From IMG/VR virus record IMGVR_UViG_3300025858_000010, positions 1-64,000 of that record: a DNA stretch of 64,000 bases. The stretch is one strand, 5' to 3'. Shown here piece after piece: positions 1 to 59,070 of the stretch; position 1 is the stretch's first letter, and each line of letters starts with the position of its first letter. The notes beneath the pieces were generated by a model. The model did no database searches, was not told the DNA's origin, and saw only the letters and a program-made list of their open reading frames with translations. The stretch is from a virus (lineage: Duplodnaviria > Caudoviricetes). The position numbers and the translations under genes were made by a program.

Positions 1-750
1 TAAATCTTTTATTTTTAATGATCTTAAATACTTTTTATATTCGTTAGTGAATCTATTATCAAAACAATATAAATGTCTTAAATTAGTTAAATATTCAATA
101 CCTTCTAAACTAGTTAATTGATTATTAAAACAATATAAATATCTCAAATTTGTTAAATGTTCAATTCCTTCTAAACTAGTTAATAAATTATTAGAACAAT
201 ATAATTCTTTTAAATTCTTTAAATATTCAATACCTTCTAAACTGGTTAATTGATTATAAGAACAATTTAATACCTCTAAATTCGTTAAATGTTCAACGCC
301 TTCTAAATTAGTTAATTCATTATTATTACAGAATAATACTTTTAGATTGGTTAAATGTTCAATACCTTCTAAACTAGTTAATCTATTGTGAGAACAATAT
401 AATATTCTTAAATTAATTAGATTTTCAATACCTTCTAAACTAGTTAATTCATTATTAGAACAATATAATCTTCTTAAATTCGTTAAATGTTCAATTCCTT
501 CTAAACTATTTAATCGATTATTATAACAAATTAATGTTTTTAAATTAGTCAAATGTTCAATACCTTCTAAACTAGTTAATTGATTATTATTACAATATAA
601 TATTTCTATTTGATCTAATGGTTTATTTTGTTTTTTAGATATAGTTATTATTGGAGTATCATTATCGTCGTTCCAATCTTCCTCACCATAAGGATCAATA
701 TCTTGTCTATTTAAATGTTCAAATATTTTAAAATTTATTAAATTGTTCAT
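1..750 (-). CDS. LRR protein, family B (22-aa LTSLEGIEHLTNL repeats, 9 repeats); 3' end runs off the window
   Basis: Not in the ORF track; manual translation MNNLINFKIFEHLNRQDIDPYGEEDW...KTLICYNNRL...NRFTNEYKKYLRSLKIKDL; paralog of 51667/57753/58375. Confidence 0.9.
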   Translation of the reverse strand, partial: MNNLINFKIFEHLNRQDIDPYGEEDWNDDNDTPIITISKKQNKPLDQIEILYCNNNQLTSLEGIEHLTNLKTLICYNNRLNSLEGIEHLTNLRRLYCSNNELTSLEGIENLINLRILYCSHNRLTSLEGIEHLTNLKVLFCNNNELTNLEGVEHLTNLEVLNCSYNQLTSLEGIEYLKNLKELYCSNNLLTSLEGIEHLTNLRYLYCFNNQLTSLEGIEYLTNLRHLYCFDNRFTNEYKKYLRSLKIKDL

Positions 751-810
751 ATTTTGAGTCGTTTTTATTGTTTTTAAATATTTTATCAATATATATTAAT
801 TCAAAATAAT

Positions 811-1464
811 TTATATTTTTTTTTCAAATGGATTATTGAGTGCCAAAATATTATTTATTTTTGGAGCGTCGTCTAAATTTTTCAAAAGATTATTACTACA
901 ATTAAACGTCGTAGCATGAATCGGTCCCCCACTTAAATCTAATAAATTATTATTTGAGCAATTGTATCCTTTAGATACATGTTTTGGTCCACCATGAAGA
1001 TTTTTGAGAAAATTATAACTACAATTAAAATATCCATGTACTATTTTTGGTGAATTTTCTAAAGTCGACAAATTGTTAAAAGAACAATCGAAATTGCTTG
1101 TCGTTCTATTAAATTTAAACGGAATTTTAAATAAATGCTTATAAGACATATTAATTGGACCATATACGTCAACACTAAGATCATCATATATAGTAAATTG
1201 ATCAGTCAGCAAACCACAATCAATTAAAAATGAAGAAATTTCTTGTTTATTATTTAATTCTTTATTTTTATTTAATAATTCATAGATTCTATCAACATCA
1301 GCATCAGAACAATAAAATTTTTGAATTTTTAAATTTATTTTAACCAATTTCATTCTAAACAATTTTATAATATCAATTTTTTTCATATCAATGACCAATC
1401 CACTTGGCAAACTTACAATATATTCCATTCTATTGATGTCACTGTATGATTTTAAATTATCCAT
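811..1464 (-). CDS. LRR-like protein, family C (FxCSxNxLxxLxGxP repeats)
   Basis: 22-aa repeats e.g. FDCSFNNLSTLENSPKIV; N-domain SLPSG shared with the next two ORFs. Confidence 0.8.
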   Translation of the reverse strand: MDNLKSYSDINRMEYIVSLPSGLVIDMKKIDIIKLFRMKLVKINLKIQKFYCSDADVDRIYELLNKNKELNNKQEISSFLIDCGLLTDQFTIYDDLSVDVYGPINMSYKHLFKIPFKFNRTTSNFDCSFNNLSTLENSPKIVHGYFNCSYNFLKNLHGGPKHVSKGYNCSNNNLLDLSGGPIHATTFNCSNNLLKNLDDAPKINNILALNNPFEKKI

Positions 1465-1469
1465 ATTTA

Positions 1470-2231
1470 CTATATTTTTTTATTGAAATCAGAAATTGGT
1501 TTGCCATATCTTATTAACTTAAAACATTTAGGTTGATATTCTAGATTCTTTTTCAAATTATTTCCAGTACAATCAAAAAAACCATTCACTTCTAAAGGAC
1601 CGTTTAATAAATCAGTTAAATTATTGTTTGAACAATCGAAATCTCTTCCTATTATTCTTGGGGATCCCTTCAAACTTATTAATATATTATTACTACAATT
1701 ATATGATTTTCCCACACTAATAGGCCCTCCAAATAAATCTATTAAATTATTTCCACTAACATCAAATTCTCCTTCAACTATTTTAGGACCGCCTTCTAAG
1801 GTGAGAAGATTTGAATTTTTAAATATAAAATCCCCAGTTATACTTTTAAATTGAAATGGGAAATTTTTATAATTATCACCATCAACATAAATAGAACCAA
1901 TAACATCTATTGAGTTATCACTGGAAATTGTATATTTCCTACAATTCTTCTGCTTTTCAAAAAATTTAACAATAGCTTCAATATCAATTACATTTCTTTT
2001 AATCTTATTCAATCTATATAAAATATTATTATAATCATCATCATTAAATATATAAGATATATATTTTTGACTATAAATTATTAATCCTTCCTGTTTTAGA
2101 TTATTAATATTATTATAATCAATTTCTATAATTTGGCCACTCGGCAATCCAATTAAATAATCGACATCTTTAGTCTTTGTAACATCTATAGACTCTGTAA
2201 ACATTTCATAATTAATCATATTCTGTGTCAT
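1470..2231 (-). CDS. LRR-like protein, family C
   Basis: Repeats LEGGPKIVEGEFDVSGNNL; GLPSG N-domain. Confidence 0.8.
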   Translation of the reverse strand: MTQNMINYEMFTESIDVTKTKDVDYLIGLPSGQIIEIDYNNINNLKQEGLIIYSQKYISYIFNDDDYNNILYRLNKIKRNVIDIEAIVKFFEKQKNCRKYTISSDNSIDVIGSIYVDGDNYKNFPFQFKSITGDFIFKNSNLLTLEGGPKIVEGEFDVSGNNLIDLFGGPISVGKSYNCSNNILISLKGSPRIIGRDFDCSNNNLTDLLNGPLEVNGFFDCTGNNLKKNLEYQPKCFKLIRYGKPISDFNKKI

Positions 2232-3078: not shown

Positions 3079-3118
3079 TTATTTATATTTAATTTTATAA
3101 TTATGTTTTCAAACAATT

Positions 3119-3634
3119 TCATAAGTTATATTTTTTTGCAGCTAATCTTTCTGGATATTTATTATAGTACCATTTCCAATAACCGTTTAAATCTTTATAA
3201 GGTAATTTATTGTATCCACAATCCAAACAAACTAATGTTTCTGGCAATTCTGGTAATTCAGTTAAATTATTATTAAAACAATATAATTCTTTTAATGTAT
3301 CCGGCAATCCAGGTAATTCAGTTAATTTATTATTATAGCAATATAATATTTTTAATGTTTTAGGTAATTCAGGTAATTCAGTTAAATTATTATTATAACA
3401 CCATAATATTTCTAATGTTTCTGGTAATTTAGGCAATTCCGTTAATTTATTATTAGAACAATATAATATTTTTAATGTTTCTGGTAATTCTGGTAATTCA
3501 GTTAATTTATTATTATAACAATATAATATTTTTAATGTATCCGGCAATCCAGGTAATTCAGTTAAATTTCTACCGGATAAATCCAATTCAGTAATTACGT
3601 TTTCAAATAATTGATATTTTTTAATATATTTCAT
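3119..3634 (-). CDS. LRR protein, family A (20-aa LTELPELPETL repeats, YopM/IpaH-like class)
   Basis: 7 repeats; leader MKYIKKYQLFE; C-cap YWKWYYNKYPERLAAKKYNL. Confidence 0.9.
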   Translation of the reverse strand: MKYIKKYQLFENVITELDLSGRNLTELPGLPDTLKILYCYNNKLTELPELPETLKILYCSNNKLTELPKLPETLEILWCYNNNLTELPELPKTLKILYCYNNKLTELPGLPDTLKELYCFNNNLTELPELPETLVCLDCGYNKLPYKDLNGYWKWYYNKYPERLAAKKYNL

Positions 3635-4206
3635 AAGTTATATTTTTTTGCAGCTAATCTTTCTGGATATTTATTATAGTACCATTTCCAATAAGATTTT
3701 AAATCATTATAAGGCAATTTATTACATTCACAATTCAAGTATTTTAATGTTTCTGGTAATTCTGGTAATTCAGTTAAATTATTATTATAACAATATAATT
3801 CTTTTAATGTATCCGGCAATCCAGGTAATTCAGTTAATTTATTATTATAGCAATATAATATTTTTAATATTTTAGGTAATTCAGGTAATTCAGTTAAATT
3901 ATTATTATAACACCATAATATTTCTAATGTTTCTGGTAATTTAGGCAATTCCGTTAATTTATTATTAGAACAATATAATTCAATCAGTGAATCATGTAAT
4001 TCAGGTAATTCCGTTAATATATTATTAGAACAATATAATCCTTTTAATGTATCTGGTAATTCTGGTAATTCAGTTAATTTATTGTTATGACAATATAATT
4101 CTTCTAATGTATCTGGTAATTCAGGTAATTCAGTTAAATTCTGATTAGATAAATTTAATTCAGTAATTACCTTATCGAATAATTGATATTTCTTAATATA
4201 TTTCAT
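3631..4206 (-). CDS. LRR protein, family A
   Basis: 8 repeats; same leader and C-cap; ATGA overlap with 3119..3634. Confidence 0.9.
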   Translation of the reverse strand: MKYIKKYQLFDKVITELNLSNQNLTELPELPDTLEELYCHNNKLTELPELPDTLKGLYCSNNILTELPELHDSLIELYCSNNKLTELPKLPETLEILWCYNNNLTELPELPKILKILYCYNNKLTELPGLPDTLKELYCYNNNLTELPELPETLKYLNCECNKLPYNDLKSYWKWYYNKYPERLAAKKYNL

Positions 4207-4285
4207 AAGTTATATTTTTTATCTTATATATAAAAATCATAAAATAAAATTTATATATAAGATAAAGAAAAAAATTGAAAATAAT

Positions 4286-6366
<2,081 letters not shown>

Positions 6367-6390
6367 TTAAACAAATTGTTTAATTTAAAT

Positions 6391-36398: not shown

Positions 36399-36806
36399 TT
36401 AATTTTCATACATATTTATATCTTCTATATTAACACTTAAAATATCACACATGTTTTGTAACGTATCATATTTCACTATTCCAAAGTTTTCAATATATCC
36501 GACTAGTTCTTTACCTTTCAAAATATTATCTACGTTTTGTACTGGATATGGATCATTAACGTATCCTATTATATCAAAATCGAAATAAAAAATATTTTCT
36601 TTTTTCGTAGCTACCACATAATAATAATCTTTCCAATTCCCTTGTCTATCATTTATTATTCTTTCCTTTTTCTTTGCTAAAAAATGACTATCTTGACCAA
36701 TCACATAAATAACATACAAATTATTATTATCTTCCCAATCCTCTTCATCATATGGATCTAAATCATTTTTAATTTCAAATATTTTAAATTTCGTAATAAT
36801 TTCCAT
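36399..36806 (-). CDS. Hypothetical protein with leader and DPYDEEDW
   Basis: MEIITKFKIFE..DLDPYDEEDW. Confidence 0.7.
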   Translation of the reverse strand: MEIITKFKIFEIKNDLDPYDEEDWEDNNNLYVIYVIGQDSHFLAKKKERIINDRQGNWKDYYYVVATKKENIFYFDFDIIGYVNDPYPVQNVDNILKGKELVGYIENFGIVKYDTLQNMCDILSVNIEDINMYEN

Positions 36807-48700: not shown

Positions 48701-50852
48701 AAGAAGGATAATCTTCATAATTACCTAAACCTATAATTAAAGAAGTTAACATTATAGTTCCAGCAACGGCTAAAGTGGCTACAACTCCGACTAACATTGC
48801 GTCAGCAACTAATCCACCAGATGCCAATGTTAAAGATCCAATTACACCCATAGATGTTCCAAATGCTATTAAAGATAGACCAACACCAAGTGACCATTCT
48901 ATCGTTGGATACTCATAATAATCCCCTTTATTTAAAATTAAAGAAGTTAACATTATAGTTCCAGCAACTGCTAAAGTTGCTATAGCCCCAATTAACATTG
49001 CTCCTGCAGTCAATCCACCAGTTGCCATTATTATAAGTCCAAGTACTCCCATTGCACTGCCAAAAGCAATTAAAGACAATCCTACACCCAAAGACCAACC
49101 AACCGATGGATATTCATCATATTTTCCTTCATTTAAAATTATAGAAGTTAACCATATAGTACCTGCCACTGCTATGGTAGCTGCAGATCCTATAGTCATT
49201 GCTATAGCAGCGGAACCACCAGTCATTGATATAATACCACCGATAATCATCATAGCGGTACCAAAAGCAATTAAAGACAATCCTACACCCAAAGACCAAC
49301 CAACCGATGGATATTCATCATATTTTCCTTTATTTAATATCCAGCTCGTGATCATAATAACTGCAGATATTCCAATTAAACTCAGCCCACCAACAAATAA
49401 TTCTTTTGTACTAAGATTTAATTTTTTTATTGTCCAAACTAAACCAGCAAAAGCTAATATTACTAATCCTGAACCGATTGACCACTTCCAGTCCGGGAAA
49501 TTATCATATATACCCAAATTTAATAACCAACTACTCGCCATTATAGTACCTGAAGCAATTAATATATTGGTTGATGCTCGCAACATTTCTTCAGATTTAA
49601 TTGGTTTTAGGGCGTATATAGCTGGTGTTAAAAACAATACAGACAAACCTATAGCCAAACTAGTCATTATTAATTGTAATGATTGTCTAAATGAAAAAAA
49701 CTTAATACCTACTAATATCCAACTAGCTGCCACCAATCCTACTGATAAAGCTGTCACCAAGAGTCCTGCAGATACTACTTCTTTTAATGTGAAATCTTTC
49801 ATTTTGTTTATAAGAGGAGACATTAAATAAACTAAAACCCCAATAGTAACCGCTACAAAAACGGAACTTATCATTTGCATAAAGGATATGGGTTTTATTC
49901 CGGATAAGATCCATGATGATATTACTAAACCCTGCGCTAAAGCAGGAACTATTATAGGAACCATTAAAAATTGGTTAACGTGTCTATTTTCCAATTTAGC
50001 CTTGTCTAATGCTTTAGTTATCAACCACAAAGATGTACCTATAGCGGTGGCAACGAATATTGTCGTTATTACTTGTGCAAATGTCAATGGAACCACTGCT
50101 GCTAATATTAAACTAGATATAGCTATACCCAAAGCTATAAGTGGTAATACTAGAGGGAGAAGCATCATTTTTGGATAATCTTTTTTATCCAAATTAGATT
50201 TTTTAACAGCATAATATACTAATGGGAGAGATATACCCATAGCAGTTGCTGTAAATATAATAGACATCATTTTAGCAAATGATATTGTTGCGGCTAAACC
50301 AAGTGCCCAACTTGATACCATTAAACCAGTGGACATCACAACCATTATAGATGATACGATTGCAGCATCCTTCCATGTCATTCCTTCTGTTAATGAAGCC
50401 ACCATAACGAAAGCTCCAGCAATAAATACCATGGTCAATCCTATGCCGATAACTGATAAAAAGTCGACAGGAGCAATTAATTTTATAGCCAATCCAATAG
50501 CTAATATTCCGGCGGCTATAAGTGTAATAACTTTAACTGCGTCGATAATTTTCTTTTTATTTTCAGTTTCGGATATAGATTGAAAAACACCACCTTTTTC
50601 TTTATCTTTTTTAGATGCTCTAATTTCCTCTAAAATTTTATCTGTGGTATTTTCAATTTTGCCAACAGATTTAACTACAATTTGAAGATTTTTAACAACA
50701 GAACCCAAATCATTGTTCATGGCAGATAACATTTCATTTACGCTATCTGCATTTTCTTTTTTTAAATCCTCATTAAGTAACTGTACTATTTTATCTAATG
50801 CGGTTGTAAAATTCTCTAATCTATCGACAAATTTTCTATCTATTGTAGGCAT
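45771..50852 (-). CDS. Tape-measure-like protein with hydrophobic and YPxxEW repeats
   Basis: 1693 aa, helical, periodic Trp, long hydrophobic middle; late-promoter motif at ~50873. Confidence 0.6.
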   Translation of the reverse strand: MPTIDRKFVDRLENFTTALDKIVQLLNEDLKKENADSVNEMLSAMNNDLGSVVKNLQIVVKSVGKIENTTDKILEEIRASKKDKEKGGVFQSISETENKKKIIDAVKVITLIAAGILAIGLAIKLIAPVDFLSVIGIGLTMVFIAGAFVMVASLTEGMTWKDAAIVSSIMVVMSTGLMVSSWALGLAATISFAKMMSIIFTATAMGISLPLVYYAVKKSNLDKKDYPKMMLLPLVLPLIALGIAISSLILAAVVPLTFAQVITTIFVATAIGTSLWLITKALDKAKLENRHVNQFLMVPIIVPALAQGLVISSWILSGIKPISFMQMISSVFVAVTIGVLVYLMSPLINKMKDFTLKEVVSAGLLVTALSVGLVAASWILVGIKFFSFRQSLQLIMTSLAIGLSVLFLTPAIYALKPIKSEEMLRASTNILIASGTIMASSWLLNLGIYDNFPDWKWSIGSGLVILAFAGLVWTIKKLNLSTKELFVGGLSLIGISAVIMITSWILNKGKYDEYPSVGWSLGVGLSLIAFGTAMMIIGGIISMTGGSAAIAMTIGSAATIAVAGTIWLTSIILNEGKYDEYPSVGWSLGVGLSLIAFGSAMGVLGLIIMATGGLTAGAMLIGAIATLAVAGTIMLTSLILNKGDYYEYPTIEWSLGVGLSLIAFGTSMGVIGSLTLASGGLVADAMLVGVVATLAVAGTIMLTSLIIGLGNYEDYPSLEWAAGVGLSIVAFSGTMAILGSFGLLSLVAGGLATLGVSGIIVLVSNILSQGNYEKGPTVEWSLGTGALLLAVGMSTILFTSLLPFVIIGGFVMKYVAQSIVDVADILAMGDYTGGPTEEWAKGVGGSIMAFAKGLSALSESDSFLGSIFGQSQSDKIIEIANAMTVANDILSSVGWSGNYPNEEWSKGVGGAIMMFAKGLAALEEADVDYDDFIEAVEYICHGIITAANILNGFDWSKITNYPTSEWSKGVGEAINAFASPLAELGKNDITGRDITRSIRRLAYGMIDAAEIIGEYDWNEAVNNYPTSEWSDAVGKAIGTFVKYLVEIEKEDVGKGDIKILKKTIASMINAAEAFNDNPDIWNTYPTGDWAEGVGKSVGTFVKYLAEIEKKDIGRGDVKTLRKTISAMIDAAEDFSDDPTIWSIYPTGDWAEGVGKSIGTFLKYLVEIEKKDIGKGDIKNLNSIISAMINTAEKFEDSGDIWSNYPPDTWVTNVNLAINSFIDMLNNINQTEIGTDNLIGLYLIIKSLLWTAKQFSNKDNVNIWTNYPPDTWVTNVNLAINSFIDMLNNINQTEIGTDNLIGLYLIINSLLWTAKQFSNKDNVNVWTNYPPDTWVTNVNLAINSFIDVLNNINQTEIGTDNLIGLYLIINSLLWTARQFSNKDNVNIWTNYPPDTWVTNVNLAINSFIDMVYRSSMSVGNLIGLYLTINALLWTARQFSDNEKTIWTNYPPTEWSDAVLKSIQSFTSSISMLSSIGYNNFSLLKDAGNSMIDFSKIIKGLDNYKDLFKDGGSLDNFSKSIKKLVDNLPTKESAEGLKTLADAMNSITSMGISGSFSIWMLSKAINDFGESLSRLDTTALTNLSKFSNGVLILSLIDDKKLEETLRVLDEKKNEIKSILSDNATAKTKETASIENKVETPDISSIVEDTKNKFYEDILTYVKSLDDNVKIMATPKPFENEENEEIEQTSKGNKVN
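46560..47260 (-). repeat. Near-identical 186-bp tandem repeats (~3.5 copies)
   Basis: CATGTATCTGGTGG at 46669, 46855, 47041, 47227. Confidence 0.9.
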
Positions 50853-51003: not shown

Positions 51004-51141
51004 TTATCTTTTTTTGAGATAGTCATAAATATATCTTTCCATAGGATCTGATATAAAATAATCAAGTTTTAATTTATCGATACCATCTAAATTAGTTAAT
51101 CTGTTACCATCGTTTTCTTTTAAATATTTTAAATGTTTCAT
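51004..51141 (-). pseudogene. Leader plus half family-B LRR relic (45 aa)
   Basis: MKHLKYLKENDGNRLTNLDGIDKL... Confidence 0.4.
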
Positions 51142-51151
51142 TTTTTTTTTA

Positions 51152-51571
51152 TTATTTTTTTAAATATTTTTCTTTATTGTTTGCGATTTGTGTTTGTAAA
51201 ATTTTAATTTTATCTTCTAATGCTTTTAATATTGTTTTATTATTTTTTATTTTTGCTTTTTGACTATCAATAAAATTCTTTTGATTTGTGGCGTTATTTG
51301 GATCATTTGGATTATTTGGCATCAGATCTCTTTGAGCGTTTTCCATTTGATTAATTTCATCAGAAATTTTTTGTTTTTGAATATTCAAAAAATTTATATA
51401 TTCTTGTGTATTAGTTATATTAGTTTTAACGTTTTTCTGTATATCTTGTTGTGGTTGAGATTGATTTGGATTCAATGGTTTTTTATTTTGCATTTCAATA
51501 TTAAGATCAATAGCATTTTTCATATCGTCCATGTTGATTGCTTCAGTGAATAATTCAAATTTAGTTATCAT
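51152..51571 (-). CDS. Coiled-coil protein with leader MITKFELFTE
   Basis: ORF; Q/N-rich coiled coil. Confidence 0.65.
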   Translation of the reverse strand: MITKFELFTEAINMDDMKNAIDLNIEMQNKKPLNPNQSQPQQDIQKNVKTNITNTQEYINFLNIQKQKISDEINQMENAQRDLMPNNPNDPNNATNQKNFIDSQKAKIKNNKTILKALEDKIKILQTQIANNKEKYLKK

Positions 51572-51666: not shown

Positions 51667-52551
51667 TTATATTCTTAAATTTTTTATTTTTAATGATTTT
51701 AAATAATTTTTATATTCATCAGTAAATCTATTATTATTACAATATAATCTTTCTAAATTGGTCAAATGTTCAATTCCTTCTAAACTAGTTAATTGATTAT
51801 TAGAACAATGTAAATATCTTAAATTAGTTAAATGTTCAATTCCTTCTAAACTAGTTAAATGATTACGTGAACAATATAATATCTCTAAATTCGTTAAATG
51901 TTCAATTCCATCTAAACTAGTTAATTCATTATTAGAACAATATAATTCTCTTAAATTCGTTAAATGTTCAATTCCATCTAAACTAGTTAATTCATTATTA
52001 GAACAATATAATTCTCTTAAATTCGTTAAATGTTCAATACCATTTAAATTAGTTAATTGATTACCAAAACAAATCAATTCTCTCAAAATTGTTAAATGTT
52101 CAATGCCTTCTAAATTAGTTAATCGATTATAAAAACAATCTAATGATATTAAATTCGTTAAATGTTCGATTCCTTCTAAACTAGTTAATTCATTATTAGA
52201 ACAATCCAATTCTCTTAAATTCGTTAAATGTTCAATTCCTTCTAAACTAGTTAATTGATTATAAGAACAATCCAATTCTCTTAAATTCGTTAAATGTTCA
52301 ATGCCTTCTAAATTAGTTAATTGATTACCAAAACAAATCAATTCTCTCAAAATTGTTAAATGTTCAATTCCTTCTAAACTAGTTAATCCTTTATAAGAAC
52401 AATCTAAAGACATTATTTGATCTAATGGTTTATTTTGTTCTTTAGCTAACTGTATTATCGGAGTATCATTATCGTCATCCCAATCTTCCTCACCATAAGG
52501 ATCTATATCCGATCTGTTTAATTGTTCAAATATTTTAAAATCCTTTATCAT
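51667..52551 (-). CDS. LRR protein, family B (11 repeats)
   Basis: MIKDFKIFEQLNRSDIDPYGEEDW leader; LTSLEGIEHLTNL repeats; cap NRFTDEYKNYLKSLKIKNLRI. Confidence 0.9.
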   Translation of the reverse strand: MIKDFKIFEQLNRSDIDPYGEEDWDDDNDTPIIQLAKEQNKPLDQIMSLDCSYKGLTSLEGIEHLTILRELICFGNQLTNLEGIEHLTNLRELDCSYNQLTSLEGIEHLTNLRELDCSNNELTSLEGIEHLTNLISLDCFYNRLTNLEGIEHLTILRELICFGNQLTNLNGIEHLTNLRELYCSNNELTSLDGIEHLTNLRELYCSNNELTSLDGIEHLTNLEILYCSRNHLTSLEGIEHLTNLRYLHCSNNQLTSLEGIEHLTNLERLYCNNNRFTDEYKNYLKSLKIKNLRI

Positions 52552-52552
52552 T

Positions 52553-52691
52553 TTATATACTTAAATATTTTATTTTCAATGATCTTAAATAGTTTTTATA
52601 TTTCTTGAGTAAATCTATTATTGTTAAACATATGGATCAATATCCATCTATTTAATTGATCAAATATTCTAAAATTCATGAAATTGTTCAT
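52553..52691 (-). pseudogene. Empty family-B LRR gene: leader joined directly to the C-cap
   Basis: ATGAACAATTTCATGAATTTTAGAATATTTGATCAATTAAATAGA..GATATTGATCCATATG followed at once by AATAATAGATTTACT..TATAAAAACTATTTAAGATCATT. Confidence 0.75.
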
Positions 52692-52707
52692 TTCTAATGA
52701 CAAATTA

Positions 52708-53655
52708 TTATTTATCGAATTGTTCATATCTGTCATCTTGAAGAACAACATCATTTGGAAGAGGTTCTGGATTTTCTTCTGAATATTCTTCTATCTTTAA
52801 TCTTTTTCTAGCTTCTATTGGATTATCCTCACTTCCTACTACTTGTTCTATTTCGTCTTCGGTTTCTAATTCTTCATCATTAATATAATCTTCAAAATCT
52901 TCCTCTTCTTCATCTATTAACCCCATTTGTTGTTTATTAAAATTTTCCCAATATTTAATCCAACTTTCATTTGGCATTTCTCTTTTATTTCCTTTATTTA
53001 ACCCCATAGGATTATCTTCTGTTCCGCGTAATATGTCATTATCTTCTTCTTGATAATCTTCTTCTTCACCTTCATCCCAATCCTCTTTTTCTTTATATTC
53101 TGGTTCCATACCTGGATTATATGTATCTCCTACTAATTCTTCGTCATCATCTTTGAAATTTTCATAAACATCATCGATATTGATTCTTTCATCATCTATA
53201 TCTTCATCTACATCATTATCTATTTTATCACTATATTCGTCTGTTATTTCATCTTCCGGATTTTCTATTGTGTGTACTGCCTGTATTTTTTTCTGTTCCA
53301 AACCTTCTTTTACAATTGGTTTTTTTGCCCATTCCGGTGTACCAGTAAATCCTTTTAATGGAATTTCATCGATTTTATTTCCTGTGATTTCTTTAAGAAT
53401 TTCTTTAAAAGTATATTTTTTAATTTCACCTGTAATCCTATCTGATATATATACTCTTTCATTTTGAACACTGTCAATAAAACCGTCAATTTTTTTAGTT
53501 AAAATATGTTTACCGATTCTCAGAAAATCCAATGTCTGATTTGAATTATTTAATGTTTGTTTTTTTGGAGTTGTTGGTATAAGATCTATATTTCCCGGAC
53601 CTTTTCCTTTATTCTCTACGCTTTCCTTTACGAAATTCTTAAAATCTTTTATCAT
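52708..53655 (-). CDS. Acidic low-complexity protein with leader
   Basis: MIKDFKNFVKE; D/E-rich; repeated GxEDNP. Confidence 0.7.
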   Translation of the reverse strand: MIKDFKNFVKESVENKGKGPGNIDLIPTTPKKQTLNNSNQTLDFLRIGKHILTKKIDGFIDSVQNERVYISDRITGEIKKYTFKEILKEITGNKIDEIPLKGFTGTPEWAKKPIVKEGLEQKKIQAVHTIENPEDEITDEYSDKIDNDVDEDIDDERINIDDVYENFKDDDEELVGDTYNPGMEPEYKEKEDWDEGEEEDYQEEDNDILRGTEDNPMGLNKGNKREMPNESWIKYWENFNKQQMGLIDEEEEDFEDYINDEELETEDEIEQVVGSEDNPIEARKRLKIEEYSEENPEPLPNDVVLQDDRYEQFDK

Positions 53656-53687
53656 TTTTATTATTATTATTTTTTATTAATGTGTTT

Positions 53688-54476
53688 TTATATACCATTT
53701 ATGCTTGGCATATCTTCTATCATACTCAATTCTTTTCTAAGTTTATTGATTTTTCTATCAATAATATGTTGAGGAGTCCTATTATAGACATAATTCCCAA
53801 CATCACTTATTTTTTTATTTGCTATTAACCAAATAGCCTCTGCTTCATACTCATTTCTTCCCTTTACCCATCCCTCAGTATATCCAGGATCATTGGGCCC
53901 TCCTTCTTCATATCCTTTTATCATAAATATTTTTTCATTATCCTTGTCTCCTTCAGATAGATGTATCAACAATTCATCGTATCTTCCTTTTAACCATCTA
54001 TGATACCAATTTTTGTTATTGATCATGAAATCACAGTTTTTAGATAATTCATTTAATTTATTTTTAATTTTCAAAGTTATTTCATCATCTTTTGGCCATA
54101 TTTCTTCGCCATATGGATCATCTAATATTTTATCATAATTTTCTTTAACGTAATCAGTTCCTTTATGTAATTTCGGATCACCATTCTTTGTATATCCTAA
54201 AGATTTTCTACTATCATTTTTTACAAAAGTCTCATATGAGTCTATGTGTCTATCCAATGGATTATCCCACCAAAATAAATTATTCATACCTTTATGTTTA
54301 ATAAGGTCATCTGATACCCTATCGCCAACATCACCTTTCATAATAGATTCATCAGGTCCGACTTTAACCTTTTGAGATTTATTTATTTCGGCTCTAATTC
54401 TTTTTAATTGGTCAACTGTTGATTGACGAGGTAAACTTTCAAATAATTTATCATGTTTATTAATTTTTTTCGTCAT
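53688..54476 (-). CDS. Hypothetical protein with DPYGEEIW
   Basis: ORF and motif. Confidence 0.7.
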   Translation of the reverse strand: MTKKINKHDKLFESLPRQSTVDQLKRIRAEINKSQKVKVGPDESIMKGDVGDRVSDDLIKHKGMNNLFWWDNPLDRHIDSYETFVKNDSRKSLGYTKNGDPKLHKGTDYVKENYDKILDDPYGEEIWPKDDEITLKIKNKLNELSKNCDFMINNKNWYHRWLKGRYDELLIHLSEGDKDNEKIFMIKGYEEGGPNDPGYTEGWVKGRNEYEAEAIWLIANKKISDVGNYVYNRTPQHIIDRKINKLRKELSMIEDMPSINGI

Positions 54477-54491
54477 TGTGGTTTTGATTTT

Positions 54492-54764
54492 TTAAAATTT
54501 TATTCTTGACGACTTACTATCCATTTTTTTATATTTAATTTCATCTCTTTTAATTTGTTCAATTTCATCTTTTTCGTTCCAGTTTTCTTCGCTATATGGA
54601 TCTACTTTAGAACGTTGATCGCTAATTTGTTTAGTATATTCATCTTTTAATTTTTTTGCCGATTTTTCAGATTTTCTTTTTTGTTTTTGATATTCTTCGT
54701 CAGGAGTCAATTCTTTCTTTCTTCCGAATAAATGAAATTCTTCAAAAGTTTTCATATTTTTCAT
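54492..54764 (-). CDS. Hypothetical protein with leader and DPYSEENW
   Basis: MKNMKTFEEF. Confidence 0.7.
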   Translation of the reverse strand: MKNMKTFEEFHLFGRKKELTPDEEYQKQKRKSEKSAKKLKDEYTKQISDQRSKVDPYSEENWNEKDEIEQIKRDEIKYKKMDSKSSRIKF

Positions 54765-54770
54765 ATTTAT

Positions 54771-55106
54771 TTATTTTTTTTTTAATTTCATGTAACTTTC
54801 AATCGAAGAAAATTCTTTTTCTATTTCTTCTATCGTATCTTTAATATTTGGATAACCATCTATTAACTTATCTTTTATATGATCAACCATTTCATACACT
54901 TCCGCATCATAGTGATACAAGTCCTGCATAAATTCCGCAATTTGTAAAGGCAGAGTTTTTTCTATCTGTTTACTCACGTAATTTATAGTATCGCCGAGTG
55001 CAGATATGATGTGTTTTTTATTAATCATAGACTGCATGACTTCATCTATTTTTTCTTCATCATTTTGATCGCCATCAAAAGATTCATATGTTTTTAATTT
55101 ATCCAT
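54771..55106 (-). CDS. Hypothetical protein with leader
   Basis: MDKLKTYESF; weak similarity to 55099..55644. Confidence 0.7.
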   Translation of the reverse strand: MDKLKTYESFDGDQNDEEKIDEVMQSMINKKHIISALGDTINYVSKQIEKTLPLQIAEFMQDLYHYDAEVYEMVDHIKDKLIDGYPNIKDTIEEIEKEFSSIESYMKLKKK

Positions 55107-55644: not shown

Positions 55645-55649
55645 ATATA

Positions 55650-55832: not shown

Positions 55833-55903
55833 TTTTGACTCGATGTTTTTATCTTATATATTAAAATTAAAAATTGAAAATATTTAATAAACAAGAAAAA
55901 AAA

Positions 55904-56518
55904 TTAAATTAGATATTCATAATCTAAATAATCAGTGCTGTCTAAATCAAAACCGGCCACAGAACCTATCCAATATAGTAAATCACCGACTTGTACATCA
56001 CCATCATTAACTCTGGCTTTGATCGGATCTCCATTATCATCACTTGAAGTGAAATAACATCCAACATGTATACCATCAGGTACACCAGCCTGAACATATC
56101 CACCGTTATTCACATTTACTTTAATTCTGGATCTTGGTATTTGCAAAACTGGAGTACTACAAGATAATTGATAATCTACACCAGATACTATATCTAAACA
56201 CATCATATTAATATTTAAAGTATTGAACGTTGGTCTATTGTCTTTGGATACAATTTCTCCAGTTAAAATCATTAATTCTTTTCTATATGATTCTAATTTG
56301 TCTGCTGCCTGTTGAGCAATTAAATGTGTTTCGAAACTTAATATTAAATCATTTTTATTTGTAATCTTTATAACTAAACAATTATTTTTAACAAACCAAT
56401 GTGATAAATCAGTTATTATACTGTCAACGAAATTATCATTTTTATCATAAATAAATATTCTTTTATCATTACTTATTGGTTTCATTAAAAAATTTTCAAG
56501 TCTATAATTATATGTCAT
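55904..56518 (-). CDS. Putative structural protein
   Basis: Beta-rich; GDLLYWIGSVAGFDL; late operon. Confidence 0.55.
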   Translation of the reverse strand: MTYNYRLENFLMKPISNDKRIFIYDKNDNFVDSIITDLSHWFVKNNCLVIKITNKNDLILSFETHLIAQQAADKLESYRKELMILTGEIVSKDNRPTFNTLNINMMCLDIVSGVDYQLSCSTPVLQIPRSRIKVNVNNGGYVQAGVPDGIHVGCYFTSSDDNGDPIKARVNDGDVQVGDLLYWIGSVAGFDLDSTDYLDYEYLI

Positions 56519-57647
56519 AATACACGCTTATATATTTTTGTTGACTATTAATATTATTAGCCAAATCTTTTATAGAAAATATGACACTATATATACCAAT
56601 TGAATCGATACTACTAATTGGTACTAAATCATCTAATGGATATATTACAACATTAGCATCATAAATACTTATTGATCCATCAACATTATCCGTGATTCCG
56701 GATACGAATATTTCTTTCAACATTGTATCGGTATAAGTTATAGCACTAGTTGCACCACTATAAGGCAATAAATATATAACAGTAGATCCACTTGTTATAC
56801 CTGTTGTCGTACCTGTTAACACATTATTCCAAGTGAATACTGGGGCATCTATATCAACAGGCGTCGTATTCGTTAAAATTCTATATCTTTGTGATTCTAA
56901 TACCCAATGCAATCTACTATTAGCCTGATCACAATTAAATGCGCTTAAGAATTCAAGTTTTATTTTTTCATCTGTATCTAATCCTATTTGTAAGGATGTT
57001 GAATTTAATTTCACAACTGTTCTAATATTATTATAAGGAATAATGGCAATAGTATTGCCTGTTATATCTAATATTTTTAGTTCAGTAGAACCAGTTGACG
57101 TTGGTATAATATAATTCACCACGTCAGAAATTAAAGAATTATAATATAACCCGCAATATGAACTATTCTGTGTATATTGACTTATGTTTGTCAAATTATC
57201 TTGTGCCAAATTAGCCATTAATACTTCAAGATACACTTTATAAGTGGAACTTGGATTATTAAAATATATTTGAGGAATTCTTTTTACACTATTACCAGTG
57301 AATATCATTAATTGACTCATATTTCTAACTTTAGTTGGATCGTCTTTGAAATAATATTCAATATATTGATCTGCTTCTATGGCCCAATTCGGATCTAATG
57401 GCATAAATTTTGCTCTAATCATCATAAAAGTAACATTTTCTCCCAAAAAACCATACATCAATGGTTGATCTTTAGATGATTCATTCAATGTAAGTTGAGA
57501 TAAATAAAAAGATTCATATTTTATTTCAAGTCCATCGAGATTTAATTTTCCTTTCATATTAGGTCCTTCAATTACAATGAAAGAACATTCATATGGTTTT
57601 ATCAACTTTTCAGTAGGAGTTAATAAAATATTTGGTTGTATGTACAT
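56508..57647 (-). CDS. Putative structural protein with C-terminal Ig-like domain
   Basis: DIDAPVF...ITDNVDG...YSVIFSIKDLANN. Confidence 0.55.
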   Translation of the reverse strand: MYIQPNILLTPTEKLIKPYECSFIVIEGPNMKGKLNLDGLEIKYESFYLSQLTLNESSKDQPLMYGFLGENVTFMMIRAKFMPLDPNWAIEADQYIEYYFKDDPTKVRNMSQLMIFTGNSVKRIPQIYFNNPSSTYKVYLEVLMANLAQDNLTNISQYTQNSSYCGLYYNSLISDVVNYIIPTSTGSTELKILDITGNTIAIIPYNNIRTVVKLNSTSLQIGLDTDEKIKLEFLSAFNCDQANSRLHWVLESQRYRILTNTTPVDIDAPVFTWNNVLTGTTTGITSGSTVIYLLPYSGATSAITYTDTMLKEIFVSGITDNVDGSISIYDANVVIYPLDDLVPISSIDSIGIYSVIFSIKDLANNINSQQKYISVYYDI

Positions 57648-57752
57648 TATTTATATTTTTTCTTTTTTATGATTTTTTCTATTGTTATATATTTATTTTT
57701 AAAATTGATTTATGAATCATATCTATTTAATTTTCTAAAATCCTTTATTATT

Positions 57753-58373
57753 TTATATTCTTAAATTTTTTATTTTTAATGATTTTAAATAATTTTTATA
57801 TTCATCAGTAAATCTATTATTATAACAATATAATACTTCTAAATTCGTTAAATGTTCAATTCCTTCTAAACTAGTTAATAAATTACTAAAACAAAATAAT
57901 CCTCTCAAATTCGTTAAATGTTCGATTCCTTCTAAATTAGTTAATCGATTATAAAAACAATCTAATGATATTAAATTCGTTAAATGTTCGATTCCTTCTA
58001 AACTAGTTAATTCATTATTAGAACAATCCAATTCTCTTAAATTCGTTAAATGTTCAATTCCTTCTAAACTAGTTAATTGATTATAAGAACAATCCAATTC
58101 TCTTAAATTCGTTAAATGTTCAATGCCTTCTAAATTAGTTAATTGATTACCAAAACAAATCAATTCTCTCAAAATTGTTAAATGTTCAATTCCTTCTAAA
58201 CTAGTTAATCCTTTATAAGAACAATCTAAAGACATTATTTGATCTAATGGTTTATTTTGTTCTTTAGCTAACTGTATTATCGGAGTATCATTATCGTCAT
58301 CCCAATCTTCCTCACCATAAGGATCTATATCCGATCTGTTTAATTGTTCAAATATTTTAAAATCCTTTATCAT
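57753..58373 (-). CDS. LRR protein, family B (7 repeats)
   Basis: First ~154 aa and C-cap identical to 51667..52551. Confidence 0.9.
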   Translation of the reverse strand: MIKDFKIFEQLNRSDIDPYGEEDWDDDNDTPIIQLAKEQNKPLDQIMSLDCSYKGLTSLEGIEHLTILRELICFGNQLTNLEGIEHLTNLRELDCSYNQLTSLEGIEHLTNLRELDCSNNELTSLEGIEHLTNLISLDCFYNRLTNLEGIEHLTNLRGLFCFSNLLTSLEGIEHLTNLEVLYCYNNRFTDEYKNYLKSLKIKNLRI

Positions 58374-58374
58374 T

Positions 58375-59070
58375 TTATATTTCTAAATGTTTTATTTTTA
58401 ATGATCTTAAATAGTTTTTATATTCATCAGTAAATCTATTATTGAAACAATATAATGTTTCTAAATTCGTTAAATGTTCAATTCCTTCTAAATTAGTTAA
58501 TTGATTATTATAACAATATAATGATTTTAAATTCGTTAAATGTTCAATGCCTTCTAAATTAGTTAATCTATTATTATAACAAATTAATGTTTTTAAATTA
58601 GTCAAATGTTCAATACCTTCTAAACTAGTTAATTGATTATTAGAACAATGTAAATATCTTAAATTAGTTAAATGTTCAATTCCTTCTAAACTAGTTAATT
58701 GATTAGAATGACAATATAATTCTCTTAAATTCGTTAAATGTTCAATTCCTTCTAAACTAGTTAATTGATTATTAGAACAATGTAATAATTCTAAATTCGT
58801 TAAATGTTCAATTCCATCTAAACTAGTTAATTCATTATTAGAACAATATAATTCTCTTAAATTCGTTAAATGTTCAATGCCTTCTAAACTAGTTAACCGA
58901 TTATGATAACAAGATAAATCAATTATTTGATCTAATGGTTTATTTTGTTTTTTAGCTAACCATATTATCGGAGTATCATAGTCATCCCAATCCTCCTCGC
59001 CGTATGGATCAATATCCGATCTATTTAATTGTTCAAATAATCTAAAACTCATTAAATTGTTCATTTTCAT
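58375..59070 (-). CDS. LRR protein, family B (8 repeats)
   Basis: MNNLMSFRLFEQLNRSDIDPYGEEDW leader; same scaffold. Confidence 0.9.
   Translation of the reverse strand: MKMNNLMSFRLFEQLNRSDIDPYGEEDWDDYDTPIIWLAKKQNKPLDQIIDLSCYHNRLTSLEGIEHLTNLRELYCSNNELTSLDGIEHLTNLELLHCSNNQLTSLEGIEHLTNLRELYCHSNQLTSLEGIEHLTNLRYLHCSNNQLTSLEGIEHLTNLKTLICYNNRLTNLEGIEHLTNLKSLYCYNNQLTNLEGIEHLTNLETLYCFNNRFTDEYKNYLRSLKIKHLEI

What the first reader, a model, noticed from the sequence alone, without database searches (positions are those of the whole stretch)
1..59070. Modular LRR repertoire (family B): constant caps, variable repeat number, swapped repeat units
Seen: four genes (1..750, 51667, 57753, 58375) share a leader, DPYGEEDW, a near-invariant 66-bp scaffold (LTSLEGIEHLTNL) and a C-cap, but carry 9, 11, 7 and 8 repeats. 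Variation is concentrated in the xxLxCxxNx positions. Identical units recur across genes: RYLHCSNNQ and RELYCSNNE-LTSLDG in 51667 and 58375, KTLICYNNR in 1..750 and 58375. Within 51667, repeat 6 copies repeat 2 and repeats 7-8 are identical. Known: those positions form the concave ligand-binding face of LRRs, and lamprey VLRs diversify by copying LRR modules. Inference: the phage keeps a recombination-diversified library of binding proteins, possibly anti-defence effectors.
Basis: partly seen in the sequence, partly recalled or inferred. Interest (0 to 1): 0.78.

Follow-up and report, generated by a model that had tools for sequence, protein, structure and literature searches.

The report
Recombining tagged LRR gene family, huge phage
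An uncultured 243-kb phage carries a dozen small leucine-rich-repeat binder genes that share a fixed frame and address peptide but swap and vary the repeat units forming the binding face, by ordinary recombination rather than a programmed system.

Summary
Four genes in the window belong to a family of 12 genes plus one decayed remnant in a 243-kb T4-type phage. Each has a disordered leader, the acidic tag DPYGEEDW, an N-cap, 4-10 full 22-residue repeats and a C-cap.

Variation is concentrated at six x positions of LxxLxCxxNx: 1.7-2.7 bits against at most 1.0 elsewhere, and pN/pS about 2 against 0.2. Of 84 units, 70 have their closest relative in another gene. Exact tracts of 446 and 386 nt join otherwise diverged paralogues.

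No reverse transcriptase, invertase or integrase was found, and every gene is complete. This is inherited recombination, not lamprey-like assembly.

The main caveat is assembly. None of 8 contig-encoded LRR proteins looked up is in the protein collection, while two hybrid forms joined at shared cassettes are. A gene block that is contiguous in a relative is split here at three LRR genes. Repeat counts and 5'/3' pairings therefore need long reads.

Function is inferred only. The tag occurs 46 times genome-wide, and the family's leader resembles the T4 capsid-targeting peptide, so head-packaged injected binders is my best guess (about 35%).

The scan reported the same kind of family before, on this genome and on other jumbo-phage DNA.

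The parts
1..750 (-). LRR family member g750: leader, tag, N-cap, 8 full repeats and a C-cap cut by the contig start
   Evidence: LRR_4 E 2e-68; 66-bp array 55-600, 8.3 copies. Units 3-5 differ by 0, 1 and 0 nt from units 1-3 of the orthologue in a sister phage (L007). Units 6-8 differ by 4-7 nt and are in another order.
51667..52551 (-). LRR family member g51667, 294 aa, 10 full repeats
   Evidence: LRR_4 E 8e-52; array 51730-52407, 10.3 copies.
52106..52551 (-). First 446 nt of g51667, identical to the first 446 nt of g57753 (57928-58373). The last 71 nt of the two genes are also identical.
   Evidence: Exact-match scan and windowed alignment.
52553..52691 (-). Decayed 13th member: leader, partial tag (DIDPY) and C-cap in three frames, with all repeats lost
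   Evidence: It lies inside pieces starting at 52529 with 0 differences: 5237 nt in runs X2 and X4, and 1315 nt in X9. Its leader is most like that of g58375, so [remnant + g51667] mirrors [g58375 + g57753].
57753..58373 (-). LRR family member g57753, 206 aa, 6 full repeats. This is the protein that was modelled.
   Evidence: LRR_4 E 4e-29. AlphaFold2 pLDDT 91.7: residues 1-28 below 65, solenoid 30-206.
58375..59070 (-). LRR family member g58375, 231 aa, 7 full repeats; first gene of a tandem pair with one base between the genes
   Evidence: LRR_4 E 2e-42.
58446..58831 (-). 386-nt tract of g58375 identical to nt 297-682 of the paralogue at genome 147224-147976, 89 kb away. Flanks are about 64-85% identical.
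   Evidence: The tract holds a run of 5 consecutive identical units, against a maximum of 2 in 1000 shuffles.
53688..54764 (-). Two non-LRR genes carrying the same DPY(G/S)EE tag, next to the LRR gene and remnant (53688-54476 and 54492-54764)
   Evidence: no Pfam family.

Best explanation
This is an inherited multigene family: 12 genes plus one remnant in this genome, and tandem arrays in related phages. The proteins are small and soluble, of the SDS22/internalin type of leucine-rich-repeat fold.

Each protein has four parts: a disordered N-terminal address (a short amphipathic leader plus the acidic tag DPYGEEDW), a helical N-cap, a variable number of 22-residue repeats, and a C-cap.

How it diversifies. 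The 39-nt frame of each 66-bp unit is kept nearly identical across all copies. It therefore offers homology for ordinary homologous recombination: gene conversion, unequal crossover, and inversion between oppositely oriented copies. This moves single 27-nt variable blocks or runs of units between genes, changes repeat number, and occasionally collapses a gene. Selection keeps amino-acid changes at the six x positions that line the concave face.

What is shown and what is inferred:
- Shown: family, fold, where variation sits, mixing of units between genes, long identical tracts, absence of a dedicated diversifying enzyme.
- Inferred (about 75%): the mosaics are biological and not only assembly paths.
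- Inferred (about 35%): the address peptide loads the proteins into the T4-type head, so that they enter the host with the DNA and bind varied host proteins early.
For: Family and fold:
- Pfam LRR_4, E 4e-29 to 2e-68.
- AlphaFold2 pLDDT 91.7, with beta strands at repeat positions 15-17.
- Foldseek: SDS22 E 4.6e-10; 6mky rmsd 1.1 A over 142 columns, 38% identity; also internalins and VLR-derived repebodies.
- phmmer against PDB sequences: InlA E 4e-50, SDS22 2e-38.

Where variation sits, from 84 units:
- Entropy is 1.7-2.7 bits at positions 14, 15, 17, 19, 20 and 22, and at most 0.97 elsewhere.
- pN/pS is 2.18 against 0.19, with similar pS (0.20 against 0.23).

Mixing of units:
- 70 of 84 units are closest to a unit in another gene, 8 to one in the same gene, and 6 tie. 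Clustering by gene is 0.124 against 0.078 +/- 0.033, reached by 56 of 500 shuffles.
- 13 of 54 distinct variable blocks are shared by two or more genes.
- 19 exact tracts of 70 nt or more lie between genes, including 446 and 386 nt, with sharp drops to 64-85% identity outside them.
- The leader and C-cap give discordant nearest paralogues.

Birth and death: a frameshifted remnant is confirmed in pieces with 0 differences from runs X2, X4 and X9.

No dedicated enzyme: no RT, resolvase or integrase.

Generality:
- 69 of the 120 listed homologues share leader, tag, Cys-type repeats and a length of at most 235 aa.
- Tandem arrays of 4, 6 and 5 genes occur in other viral contigs.
- Two samples give identical arrays for two genes of a sister phage.

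Address peptide:
- Residues 1-28 are predicted disordered.
- The tag is at 46 sites against 0 in the control, with varied synonymous codons.
- The leader motif is in 66 of 286 ORFs, against 16.6 +/- 3.4 in shuffles.
- T4-type portal, head protease and Gp23 capsid genes are present.
- The protease carries 14 Y[ILV][AG]E units.
- The T4 CTS is MKTYQEFIAE (PMC8442874, passage). The family consensus leader is MIKKYxQYIKE.
Against: Assembly:
- 0 of 8 LRR proteins as encoded by this contig are in the 15-billion-protein collection. Two hybrids are (P0005 and P0014, ENA, 2 contigs each), joined exactly at cassettes shared between paralogues.
- Many related contigs end inside LRR genes.
- Public contigs of four runs break in the arrays and cannot confirm unit order.

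pN/pS between repeats of one protein is not a formal test of positive selection. pS is capped by the strong A/T codon bias.

Packaging:
- The window's own leaders (MIKNFKIFE...) do not score among the top 45 N-termini with a profile of the scaffold units.
- That profile is only weakly enriched at N-termini: 8 of 285 above the 99th percentile and 24 of 285 above the 95th.
- The proteins are acidic (pI 4.6-6.1), whereas T4 internal proteins are described as highly basic (PMC8442874).
- 23% of ORFs carrying the leader is a lot for one cargo class.
- No RecA-family recombinase was found in the genome.
- No target, no expression data and no proteome exist.
Confidence: 0.5

Rival explanations
1. Assembly-path artefact. 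The units and the family are real, but which 5' half goes with which 3' half, and how many units each gene has, results from threading short reads through near-identical repeats. The 'swapped units' between particular genes are then partly not biological.
For: - 0 of 8 contig LRR proteins are found exactly elsewhere. P0005 (g110057 units 0-3 plus g149520 units 7-8) and P0014 (g149520 units 0-2 plus g147224 unit 8) exist in other assemblies.
- The block [82 aa][60 aa][78 aa][404 aa], contiguous in the closest relative L067, has its homologues here at 110 kb, 148.5 kb and 56.5 kb. Each lies beside an LRR gene.
- By my reasoning, a path that swaps at the 81-nt and 386-nt shared tracts would restore that order and would contain P0005.
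- Contigs of relatives often stop in LRR genes.
Against: - Four distinct unique flanks adjoin the 386-nt tract, so it must be present at least twice whatever the path (inference).
- The pair g51667/g57753 is a two-copy direct repeat with only one possible order.
- The remnant gene has unique junctions and is identical in pieces from runs of three studies.
- Two independent samples give identical arrays in the sister phage.
- Unit-level statistics do not depend on the path.
Confidence: 0.25
2. Virion-surface binders. The tag docks the LRR proteins, and the other tagged proteins, onto the outside of the particle (head, collar or fibres). There the variable concave faces act as adhesins that widen or shift host recognition.
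For: - In chimallivirus Goslar a shared N-terminal module (DUF7941) carries carbohydrate-binding, hydrolase or LRR payloads into a tail-associated fibre cloud proposed for host recognition (PMC13742148, passages).
- The closest non-viral relatives include Bacteroidota LRR proteins with a type IX secretion sorting domain (P0071, P0076).
- Two of the genes sit next to genes conserved beside a collagen-like giant protein in relatives.
Against: - No oligomerisation or fibre-anchor domain; the proteins have 184-481 residues.
- The acidic, disordered 8-residue tag also ends many tiny proteins.
- 14 of 14 relatives lack LRR genes at the locus next to the structural genes.
Confidence: 0.15
3. Non-packaged intracellular adaptors. 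The proteins are made after infection and bind host proteins in the cytoplasm. The tag recruits them, and about 26 other tagged proteins, to a shared hub such as a chaperone, protease or replication factor.
For: - No signal peptide or membrane segment; the longest hydrophobic run is 5 residues.
- Acidic proteins, unlike T4 internal proteins.
- The phage encodes its own Hsp70 at 36938-38818, with two tagged genes immediately beside it.
- SDS22, the best structural match, is an adaptor of a phosphatase.
Against: - No hub has been identified.
- The tagged proteins have no known domains: 1 of 26 passes a Pfam cut-off.
- The leader resembles a head-targeting peptide in most relatives.
Confidence: 0.25
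4. Programmed diversification, the strong form of the first reader's idea: units are copied into an expressed gene during each infection (VLR-like), or varied by a diversity-generating retroelement or an invertase shufflon.
For: - Fixed frame, variable concave positions and reuse of units resemble VLRs. Repebodies built on VLRs are among the structural matches.
- Most variable codons are of the NNT type.
Against: - All 12 genes are complete and separately translatable.
- There are no cap-less donor cassettes.
- PF00078 gives only 13.8 bits, with three stops inside the match.
- No resolvase or integrase was found, while the controls matched in 12 and 14 of 14 control genomes.
- The unique DNA between the genes is identical in runs from different studies and years.
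Confidence: 0.03

Closest known systems
T-even phage internal proteins (IPI, IPII, IPIII) with the capsid-targeting sequence
   Same: Both are a diverse set of proteins sharing only a short N-terminal address. T4's is MKTYQEFIAE, cut once by the head protease (PMC8442874, passage). T-even internal proteins are described as a highly diverse set of defence proteins sharing only a conserved CTS (PMC3012670, passage). Here the family consensus leader MIKKYxQYIKE shares Y-x-x-[YF]-I-x-E, and T4-type portal, protease and capsid genes are present.
   Different: The payload here is one modular fold in a dozen copies, not unrelated folds. The proteins are acidic, not basic. There is a second signal, the DPYGEEDW tag. 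The window's own leaders have drifted from the motif. Packaging and cleavage are not shown.
SDS22 (PPP1R7) and Listeria internalins (InlA, InlB, InlJ): 22-residue LRR class
   Same: Same repeat length and pattern, and the same fold. SDS22: 6mky rmsd 1.1 A, 38% identity. InlA E 4e-50, InlJ E 3e-23. InlJ is recalled as having a cysteine in the ladder position.
   Different: No signal peptide, no Ig-like inter-repeat domain and no wall anchor. The genes are phage-encoded, much shorter, multi-copy and carry a disordered N-terminal address.
Lamprey variable lymphocyte receptors
   Same: Fixed caps, a variable number of LRR modules, diversity on the concave face, and modules reused between genes. 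VLR-derived repebodies are structural matches.
   Different: VLRs are assembled somatically from cap-less donor cassettes into one incomplete germline gene (established knowledge, recalled). Here every copy is a complete inherited gene and no dedicated enzyme was found.
Goslar (Chimalliviridae) DUF7941 payload proteins
   Same: One shared N-terminal module on several proteins with different payloads, LRR domains among them (PMC13742148, passages).
   Different: DUF7941 is a folded domain that oligomerises into tail-associated fibres. Here the shared element is a disordered 8-residue acidic motif plus a short leader, in a T4-type phage rather than a nucleus-forming one.
Repeat-protein multigene families that evolve by gene conversion and unequal crossover (plant LRR resistance-gene clusters, Leptospira and Bacteroidota LRR families)
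   Same: Concerted evolution of the frame, excess change at solvent-exposed x positions, and mosaic paralogues (general knowledge, recalled). Leptospira LIC10831 is a 41%-identity structural match.
   Different: Here the family sits in a lytic-type phage genome of 243 kb. The units are unusually uniform: 39 of 66 nt are nearly invariant.

Membership tests
Leucine-rich repeat superfamily, SDS22-like/internalin 22-residue class | Tandem 22-residue units with LxxLxLxxNxL | tested here: met
   84 units in strict 22-codon register. L13, L16, N21 and L1 are invariant; Cys replaces the third Leu in 84 of 84 units.
Leucine-rich repeat superfamily, SDS22-like/internalin 22-residue class | Profile match above the curated cut-off | tested here: met
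   PF12799 LRR_4 scores 100-225 bits against a cut-off of 27, for 4 of 4 genes.
Leucine-rich repeat superfamily, SDS22-like/internalin 22-residue class | Curved solenoid with a parallel beta sheet on the concave side | tested here: met
   AlphaFold2 pLDDT 96-99 over residues 30-206, with one 3-residue strand per unit. Foldseek gives 464 PDB matches at E <= 0.001, headed by SDS22 and internalins.
Listeria-type internalins | Secretion signal, Ig-like inter-repeat region, surface anchor | tested here: not met
   The N-terminus is acidic and hydrophilic, with a longest hydrophobic run of 5 or fewer residues. The proteins end in a 20-residue cap directly after the last repeat.
T4-type capsid-targeted internal proteins | N-terminal peptide of about 10 residues like MKTYQEFIAE, ending in (I/L)-x-E | tested here: inconclusive
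   The family consensus MIKKYxQYIKE fits (profile score 6.8 against a 99th percentile of 1.2). The window's genes read MIKDFKIFE or MNNLMSFRLFE: they keep I/L-F-E but do not score.
T4-type capsid-targeted internal proteins | A T4-type prohead protease and scaffold in the same genome | tested here: met
   phrog_207 head maturation protease, E 1.5e-26, on residues 1-224 of the 808-aa ORF lying between the portal and Gp23 genes. Fourteen Y[ILV][AG]E units follow the protease domain.
T4-type capsid-targeted internal proteins | Presence in the mature head and removal of the leader | not testable with these tools
   No proteome exists.
T4-type capsid-targeted internal proteins | Basic proteins that lie with the DNA | tested here: not met
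   pI 4.55-6.08 for 12 of 12 proteins. T4 internal proteins are called 'highly basic' in PMC8442874.
VLR-like somatic assembly | One incomplete expressed gene plus cap-less donor cassettes | tested here: not met
   12 of 12 genes have a start codon, leader, N-cap and C-cap (11 end in a stop codon; g750 is cut by the contig start). The only incomplete copy is a frameshifted remnant without any repeat.
VLR-like somatic assembly | Cytidine deaminase of the AID/APOBEC type | not tested
   No search was made for deaminase families.
Diversity-generating retroelement | Reverse transcriptase with template and variable repeat | tested here: not met
   PF00078: best match 13.8 bits (cut-off 29.6), with three stop codons inside.
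Invertase shufflon / invertible tail-fibre segment | Serine or tyrosine site-specific recombinase | tested here: not met
   PF00239 and PF00589 give no match at E <= 0.01. The control genomes matched in 12 of 14 and 14 of 14.

The most novel reading that the evidence does not exclude
The LRR paralogues may do two things at once. First, they are a standing repertoire of head-packaged, injected binders, whose address peptide is shared with dozens of other cargo proteins. Second, their near-identical 66-bp frames act as portable homology. Through it the phage population keeps flipping and re-pairing gene halves, and even 40-90-kb genome segments. Natural populations would then hold several genome isomers, each with a different set of binders.
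Probability: 0.2. Interest if true: 0.85.

Novelty: new variant of a known kind. Interest (0 to 1): 0.6.

Why it matters
If the proteins are delivered binders, this would be a phage counterpart of the variable effector repertoires of cellular pathogens. It would extend the T4 'internal protein' idea from a few unrelated inhibitors to a modular, recombining binder scaffold. That gives a direct route to finding which host proteins large phages must neutralise.

The uniform frame with six variable positions per unit is also a natural design for engineered binders.

Independently of function, the family shows how repeats inside genes can confound the assembly of huge-phage genomes, or genuinely rearrange them. 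This matters for anyone who reads gene order from such contigs.

I found no paper describing the tag or such a phage LRR family.

Tried and rejected
- Read-level test of the arrays. The only data served were Logan contigs of four runs (X2, X3, X4, X9). They break inside every LRR array, and paralogues cross-map. Unit order, heterogeneity and the listed 'joints' could therefore not be interpreted.
- Exact 35-nt anchor from the neighbouring gene: no match in viral contigs or metagenome contigs.
- Orthologous locus in relatives: 3 viral and 11 metagenome loci (63-85% identity of the 379-aa neighbour) have no LRR gene there, so no strain-to-strain comparison of these two genes was possible.
- Prokaryote genomes: 29 stretches match the tag pattern, but none encodes a relative. 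This gives no host clue.
- Tag partners: 26 tagged non-LRR ORFs give no usable Pfam hint.
- Scaffold-mimic idea. A profile of the 14 scaffold units is only weakly enriched at N-termini and does not pick up the window's LRR leaders. I kept it as a lead only.
- A phage recombinase: no PF00154 match, so the enzyme behind the recombination is unidentified.
- DGR, shufflon and VLR readings were rejected.
- One literature search failed on a term that was too short.

Full report
SETTING

The window is the first 64 kb of a single 243,112-bp virus contig with 26% G+C. CheckV rates it complete, and no end repeats were found. It is a T4-type phage by the following evidence:
- a T4 portal (PF07230, E 7e-74);
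- a Gp23-family capsid protein (PF07068, E 6e-25);
- a head maturation protease (phrog_207, E 1.5e-26; weak PF03420);
- a clamp loader, and a DNA polymerase split by homing endonucleases.

A 1693-aa ORF is 46% identical to a protein of the 735-kb uncultured phages LR756501 and LR756503. Near-identical DNA is held by 20 of the 24 listed public runs, from 10 studies of activated sludge, wastewater, bioreactors, groundwater and food production.

THE OBSERVATION

The four genes are real and lie where stated.

The genome holds 12 complete members. Two of them carry extra N-terminal sequence. A 139-nt remnant at 52553-52691 keeps a leader, part of the tag and a C-cap in three different frames and has lost all repeats. 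The remnant plus g51667 mirrors the tandem pair g58375 plus g57753, so a two-gene unit was duplicated and one copy then collapsed.

A second, unrelated LRR family with 60-bp units lies at 3119-4206 and 31368-31886.

WHERE THE VARIATION SITS

I cut 84 full units in the register LTSLEGIEHLTNLxxLxCxxNx.
- Entropy is 1.7-2.7 bits at positions 14, 15, 17, 19, 20 and 22, and at most 0.97 bits at the other 16 positions.
- Between units, pN/pS is 2.18 at these six codons against 0.19 at the rest, with similar pS of 0.20 and 0.23. Using only the 70 distinct units gives 2.00 against 0.21.
- In the AlphaFold2 model of g57753 (58-sequence alignment, pLDDT 91.7) the strand of each unit covers positions 15-17. 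Positions 15 and 17 therefore point from the sheet, and 19, 20 and 22 follow it, which is the concave face by the standard LRR geometry.

Comparing repeats within and between paralogues is not a formal selection test. In addition, A/T codon bias caps pS. I therefore read this as a strong concentration of amino-acid change on the binding face, not as proven positive selection.

MIXING OF UNITS

It is not met.
- 70 of 84 units have their closest relative in another gene, 8 in the same gene, and 6 tie.
- The share of nearest neighbours in the same gene is 0.124 against 0.078 +/- 0.033 (56 of 500 shuffles reach it).
- By ordinal from the N-terminus the share is 0.193 against 0.115 (22 of 500 shuffles).
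- Only the ordinal counted from the C-cap is clearly non-random: 0.273 against 0.116 (0 of 500 shuffles).
- There are 54 distinct 27-nt variable blocks. Thirteen occur in two or more genes and five in three or more.

Nineteen exact tracts of 70 nt or more link different genes.
- Seventeen are 70-125 nt long, mostly about one unit in size, and most lie at different repeat ordinals.
- The other two are long. The first 446 nt of g51667 and g57753 are identical, as are their last 71 nt. And 386 nt of g58375 equal 386 nt of the gene at 147224-147976, while the flanks of that pair are 64-85% identical.
- The long tracts give runs of 5 identical units, against at most 2 in 1000 shuffles.

Between phages, units 3-5 of g750 differ by 0, 1 and 0 nt from the orthologue in a sister phage. 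Units 6-8 differ by 4-7 nt and are ordered differently.

MECHANISM OF DIVERSIFICATION

No dedicated machinery was found:
- no credible reverse transcriptase (13.8 bits, with stops inside);
- no serine or tyrosine recombinase;
- every family member is a complete gene.

The 39 nearly invariant nucleotides of each unit supply homology on both sides of each 27-nt variable block. General homologous recombination is the simplest explanation. It would account for short-patch conversion, unequal crossover that changes unit number, deletion (the remnant), and inversion between oppositely oriented copies. The recombinase itself is not identified, since there is no PF00154 match.

THE ASSEMBLY CAVEAT

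This is the main weakness.

Eight LRR proteins as encoded by the contig were looked up, and none is in the 15-billion-protein collection. Two hybrids are present, each on two ENA contigs.
- P0005 is g110057 units 0-3 joined to g149520 units 7-8.
- P0014 is g149520 units 0-2 joined to g147224 unit 8.
- Both are joined exactly at a cassette that is identical in the two parents.

In the closest relative of the neighbouring 379-aa gene (L067, 85% identity), the ORFs of 82, 60, 78 and 404 aa are contiguous. Here their homologues are scattered:
- the 82-aa ORF matches the N-terminal extension of g110057 (E 8e-14);
- the 78-aa ORF matches 148549-148773 (E 2.5e-34);
- the 404-aa ORF corresponds to 56508-57647.
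So one block is split three ways, each time beside an LRR gene.

By my own reasoning from the tract coordinates, two nested inversions would restore the relative's order and would create P0005. The first goes through the 81-nt tract shared by g110057 and g149520, which are in opposite orientation. The second goes through the 386-nt tract.

Either such isomers exist in nature, or one of the assemblies took a wrong path. Public contigs cannot decide, because they break in the arrays.

Several points argue that not everything is artefact:
- the 386-nt tract has four different unique flanks, so it must be at least duplicated;
- the g51667/g57753 repeat allows only one order;
- the remnant is identical in contig pieces from runs X2, X4 and X9;
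- two samples give identical arrays, with 0 mismatches in 687 and 750 nt plus flanks, for two genes of a sister phage.

The unit-level statistics do not depend on the path. The repeat counts and the 5'/3' pairings do.

SPREAD OF THE FAMILY

- 69 of the 120 best homologues listed share a leader, the tag, at least two Cys-type repeats and a length of at most 235 aa. All 120 come from metagenomes or viral contigs.
- The consensus reads MIKKYxQYIKE ... IDPYGEEDW ... LxPVLQIAKKQGKPYDQI, then repeats, then FSxEYKxYLxxYCKxKxIxLxI.
- 47 viral loci were recovered, with tandem arrays of 4, 6 and 5 genes.
- No relative was found in one genome per prokaryote species.
- Other hits are Bacteroidota LRR proteins with a type IX sorting domain, and a different leader-less LRR family on contigs labelled as giant-virus bins.

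THE ADDRESS PEPTIDE AND LIKELY FUNCTION

Residues 1-28 are predicted disordered, with pLDDT 47-64. There is no hydrophobic signal sequence.

The tag:
- DP[YFW]xEE occurs at 46 sites, against 0 in the reversed genome. Synonymous codons vary (CCT 23, CCA 20; TAT 29, TAC 16), so it is kept at the protein level.
- 12 sites are in LRR leaders, about 15 at extreme C-termini, and 6 in one 673-aa ORF.
- The 26 other tagged ORFs are unknowns; 1 passes a Pfam cut-off.

The leader:
- A leader motif (M, then two aromatic or hydrophobic residues three apart, then E) starts 66 of 286 ORFs, against 16.6 +/- 3.4 in shuffles.
- It co-occurs with the tag: 13 of 26 tagged ORFs have it, against 41 of 245 untagged ORFs (odds ratio 5.0, p 2.7e-4).
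- The family consensus leader shares Y-x-x-[YF]-I-x-E with the T4 capsid-targeting sequence MKTYQEFIAE. That sequence is removed by the head protease, while the protein stays in the head (PMC8442874, passage).
- T-even internal proteins are described as a diverse set of anti-restriction proteins sharing only that sequence (PMC3012670, passage).

The head protease:
- This phage's head protease is fused to a scaffold-like region with 14 units of Y[ILV][AG]E.
- That is a conserved trait: 107 of the 151 proteins examined (the query plus its 150 best homologues) have at least 5 such sites.

Against the packaging idea:
- The window's own LRR leaders have drifted (MIKDFKIFE) and do not score with a profile of those units.
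- That profile is only weakly enriched at N-termini.
- The proteins are acidic.

I therefore rate 'packaged and injected binders' at about 35%, 'intracellular adaptors that are not packaged' at about 25%, and 'virion-surface adhesins', as proposed for the Goslar DUF7941 payload proteins (PMC13742148), at about 15%. The rest is open. The complex-prediction tool that could have tested a leader-scaffold contact was not available.

COMPARISON AND VERDICT

By fold and sequence these are SDS22/internalin-class LRR proteins, but they lack every internalin feature outside the repeats. They work like a multigene binder repertoire that evolves by conversion. They resemble lamprey VLRs only in architecture. 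The closest functional analogue is the T-even internal-protein system, but membership in it is unproven.

I found no paper on the tag or on such a phage family. 'DPYGEE' gave 3 unrelated papers, and two LRR-plus-phage searches gave nothing pertinent in the listings.

Earlier notes of this scan describe the same family: a cluster at 146-150 kb of this genome, and leader-bearing LRR arrays in other jumbo phages. Those are AI notes and not independent evidence, but my tests agree with them.

What this report adds is the remnant gene, the hybrid forms in other assemblies, and the split synteny block. Together these show that the LRR genes are breakpoints of real or apparent genome rearrangement.

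Noticed in passing
window 3119-3634 (-), 3631-4206 (-), 31368-31886 (+): A second LRR family with 20-residue LTELPxLPxTLxxLYCxNNK units (60-bp arrays). It has a leader MKYIKKYQLFE but no DPYGEEDW tag, and a shared C-terminal end. The unit type recalls YopM/IpaH-class repeats (recalled, not tested).
   Followed up: partly
whole genome; in the window at 31883-32992, 35706-36281, 36399-36806, 53688-54476, 54492-54764: The acidic motif DP[YFW]xEE(x)W occurs at 46 sites in about 38 ORFs, often as the last residues of the protein, against 0 in the reversed-sequence control. Twenty-six non-LRR carriers have no known domain.
   Followed up: partly
whole genome, N-termini of ORFs: 66 of 286 ORFs start with M..[FY]..[FY]..E-type leaders, against 16.6 +/- 3.4 in shuffles. 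The same kind of N-terminus is seen in relatives' ORFs (L001-L003, L065-L075).
   Followed up: partly
genome 127379-129805 (-), outside the window: The head maturation protease is fused to a long C-terminal region holding 14 tandem 14-residue units with Y[ILV][AG]E. 236 homologues have E <= 1e-30, and 107 of the 151 proteins examined (query plus 150 homologues) have at least 5 such sites. It looks like a self-digesting scaffold.
   Followed up: partly
window 56508-57647; genome 110063-110182 and 148549-148773: Homologues of three ORFs that are contiguous in relative L067 lie 54 to 92 kb apart here, each beside an LRR gene. This points to LRR-mediated inversions or to a wrong assembly path.
   Followed up: partly
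window 59244-63887 (-): The family-B DNA polymerase is split into at least two ORFs (59244-60332 and 61419-62513), interleaved with homing-endonuclease ORFs (60316-61395 and 62550-63887). Similar endonucleases also sit between the portal and the protease.
   Followed up: no
window 45771-50852 (-): A 1693-aa ORF without a Pfam or PHROG family, 46% identical to a protein of the 735-kb uncultured phages. It contains internal repeats of 180-201 bp (46626-47255 has 3.4 copies at 93%).
   Followed up: no
window 36938-38818 (+), 5143-6336 (-), 44123-45223 (-): Phage-encoded Hsp70 (E 6e-242), adenylosuccinate synthetase (E 5e-138) and an IMPDH/GMP-reductase-like protein.
   Followed up: no
window 14310-17867 (-): An 1185-aa fusion of a T5orf172 domain, a helicase (ResIII/Helicase_C) and an Eco57I-type methylase region.
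   Followed up: no
window 51135-51261, 53645-53684, 54757-54795: read laying skipped these stretches as repeats, and reads seem cut there. The 127-bp stretch lies just downstream of g51667.
   Followed up: no
L019, L020, L025 (viral contigs): Arrays of up to 8 tandem genes of another Cys-type LRR family. It starts MW.I.DF.KW and has no leader or tag. Related forms lie on contigs labelled as giant-virus bins (L027, L043).
   Followed up: no
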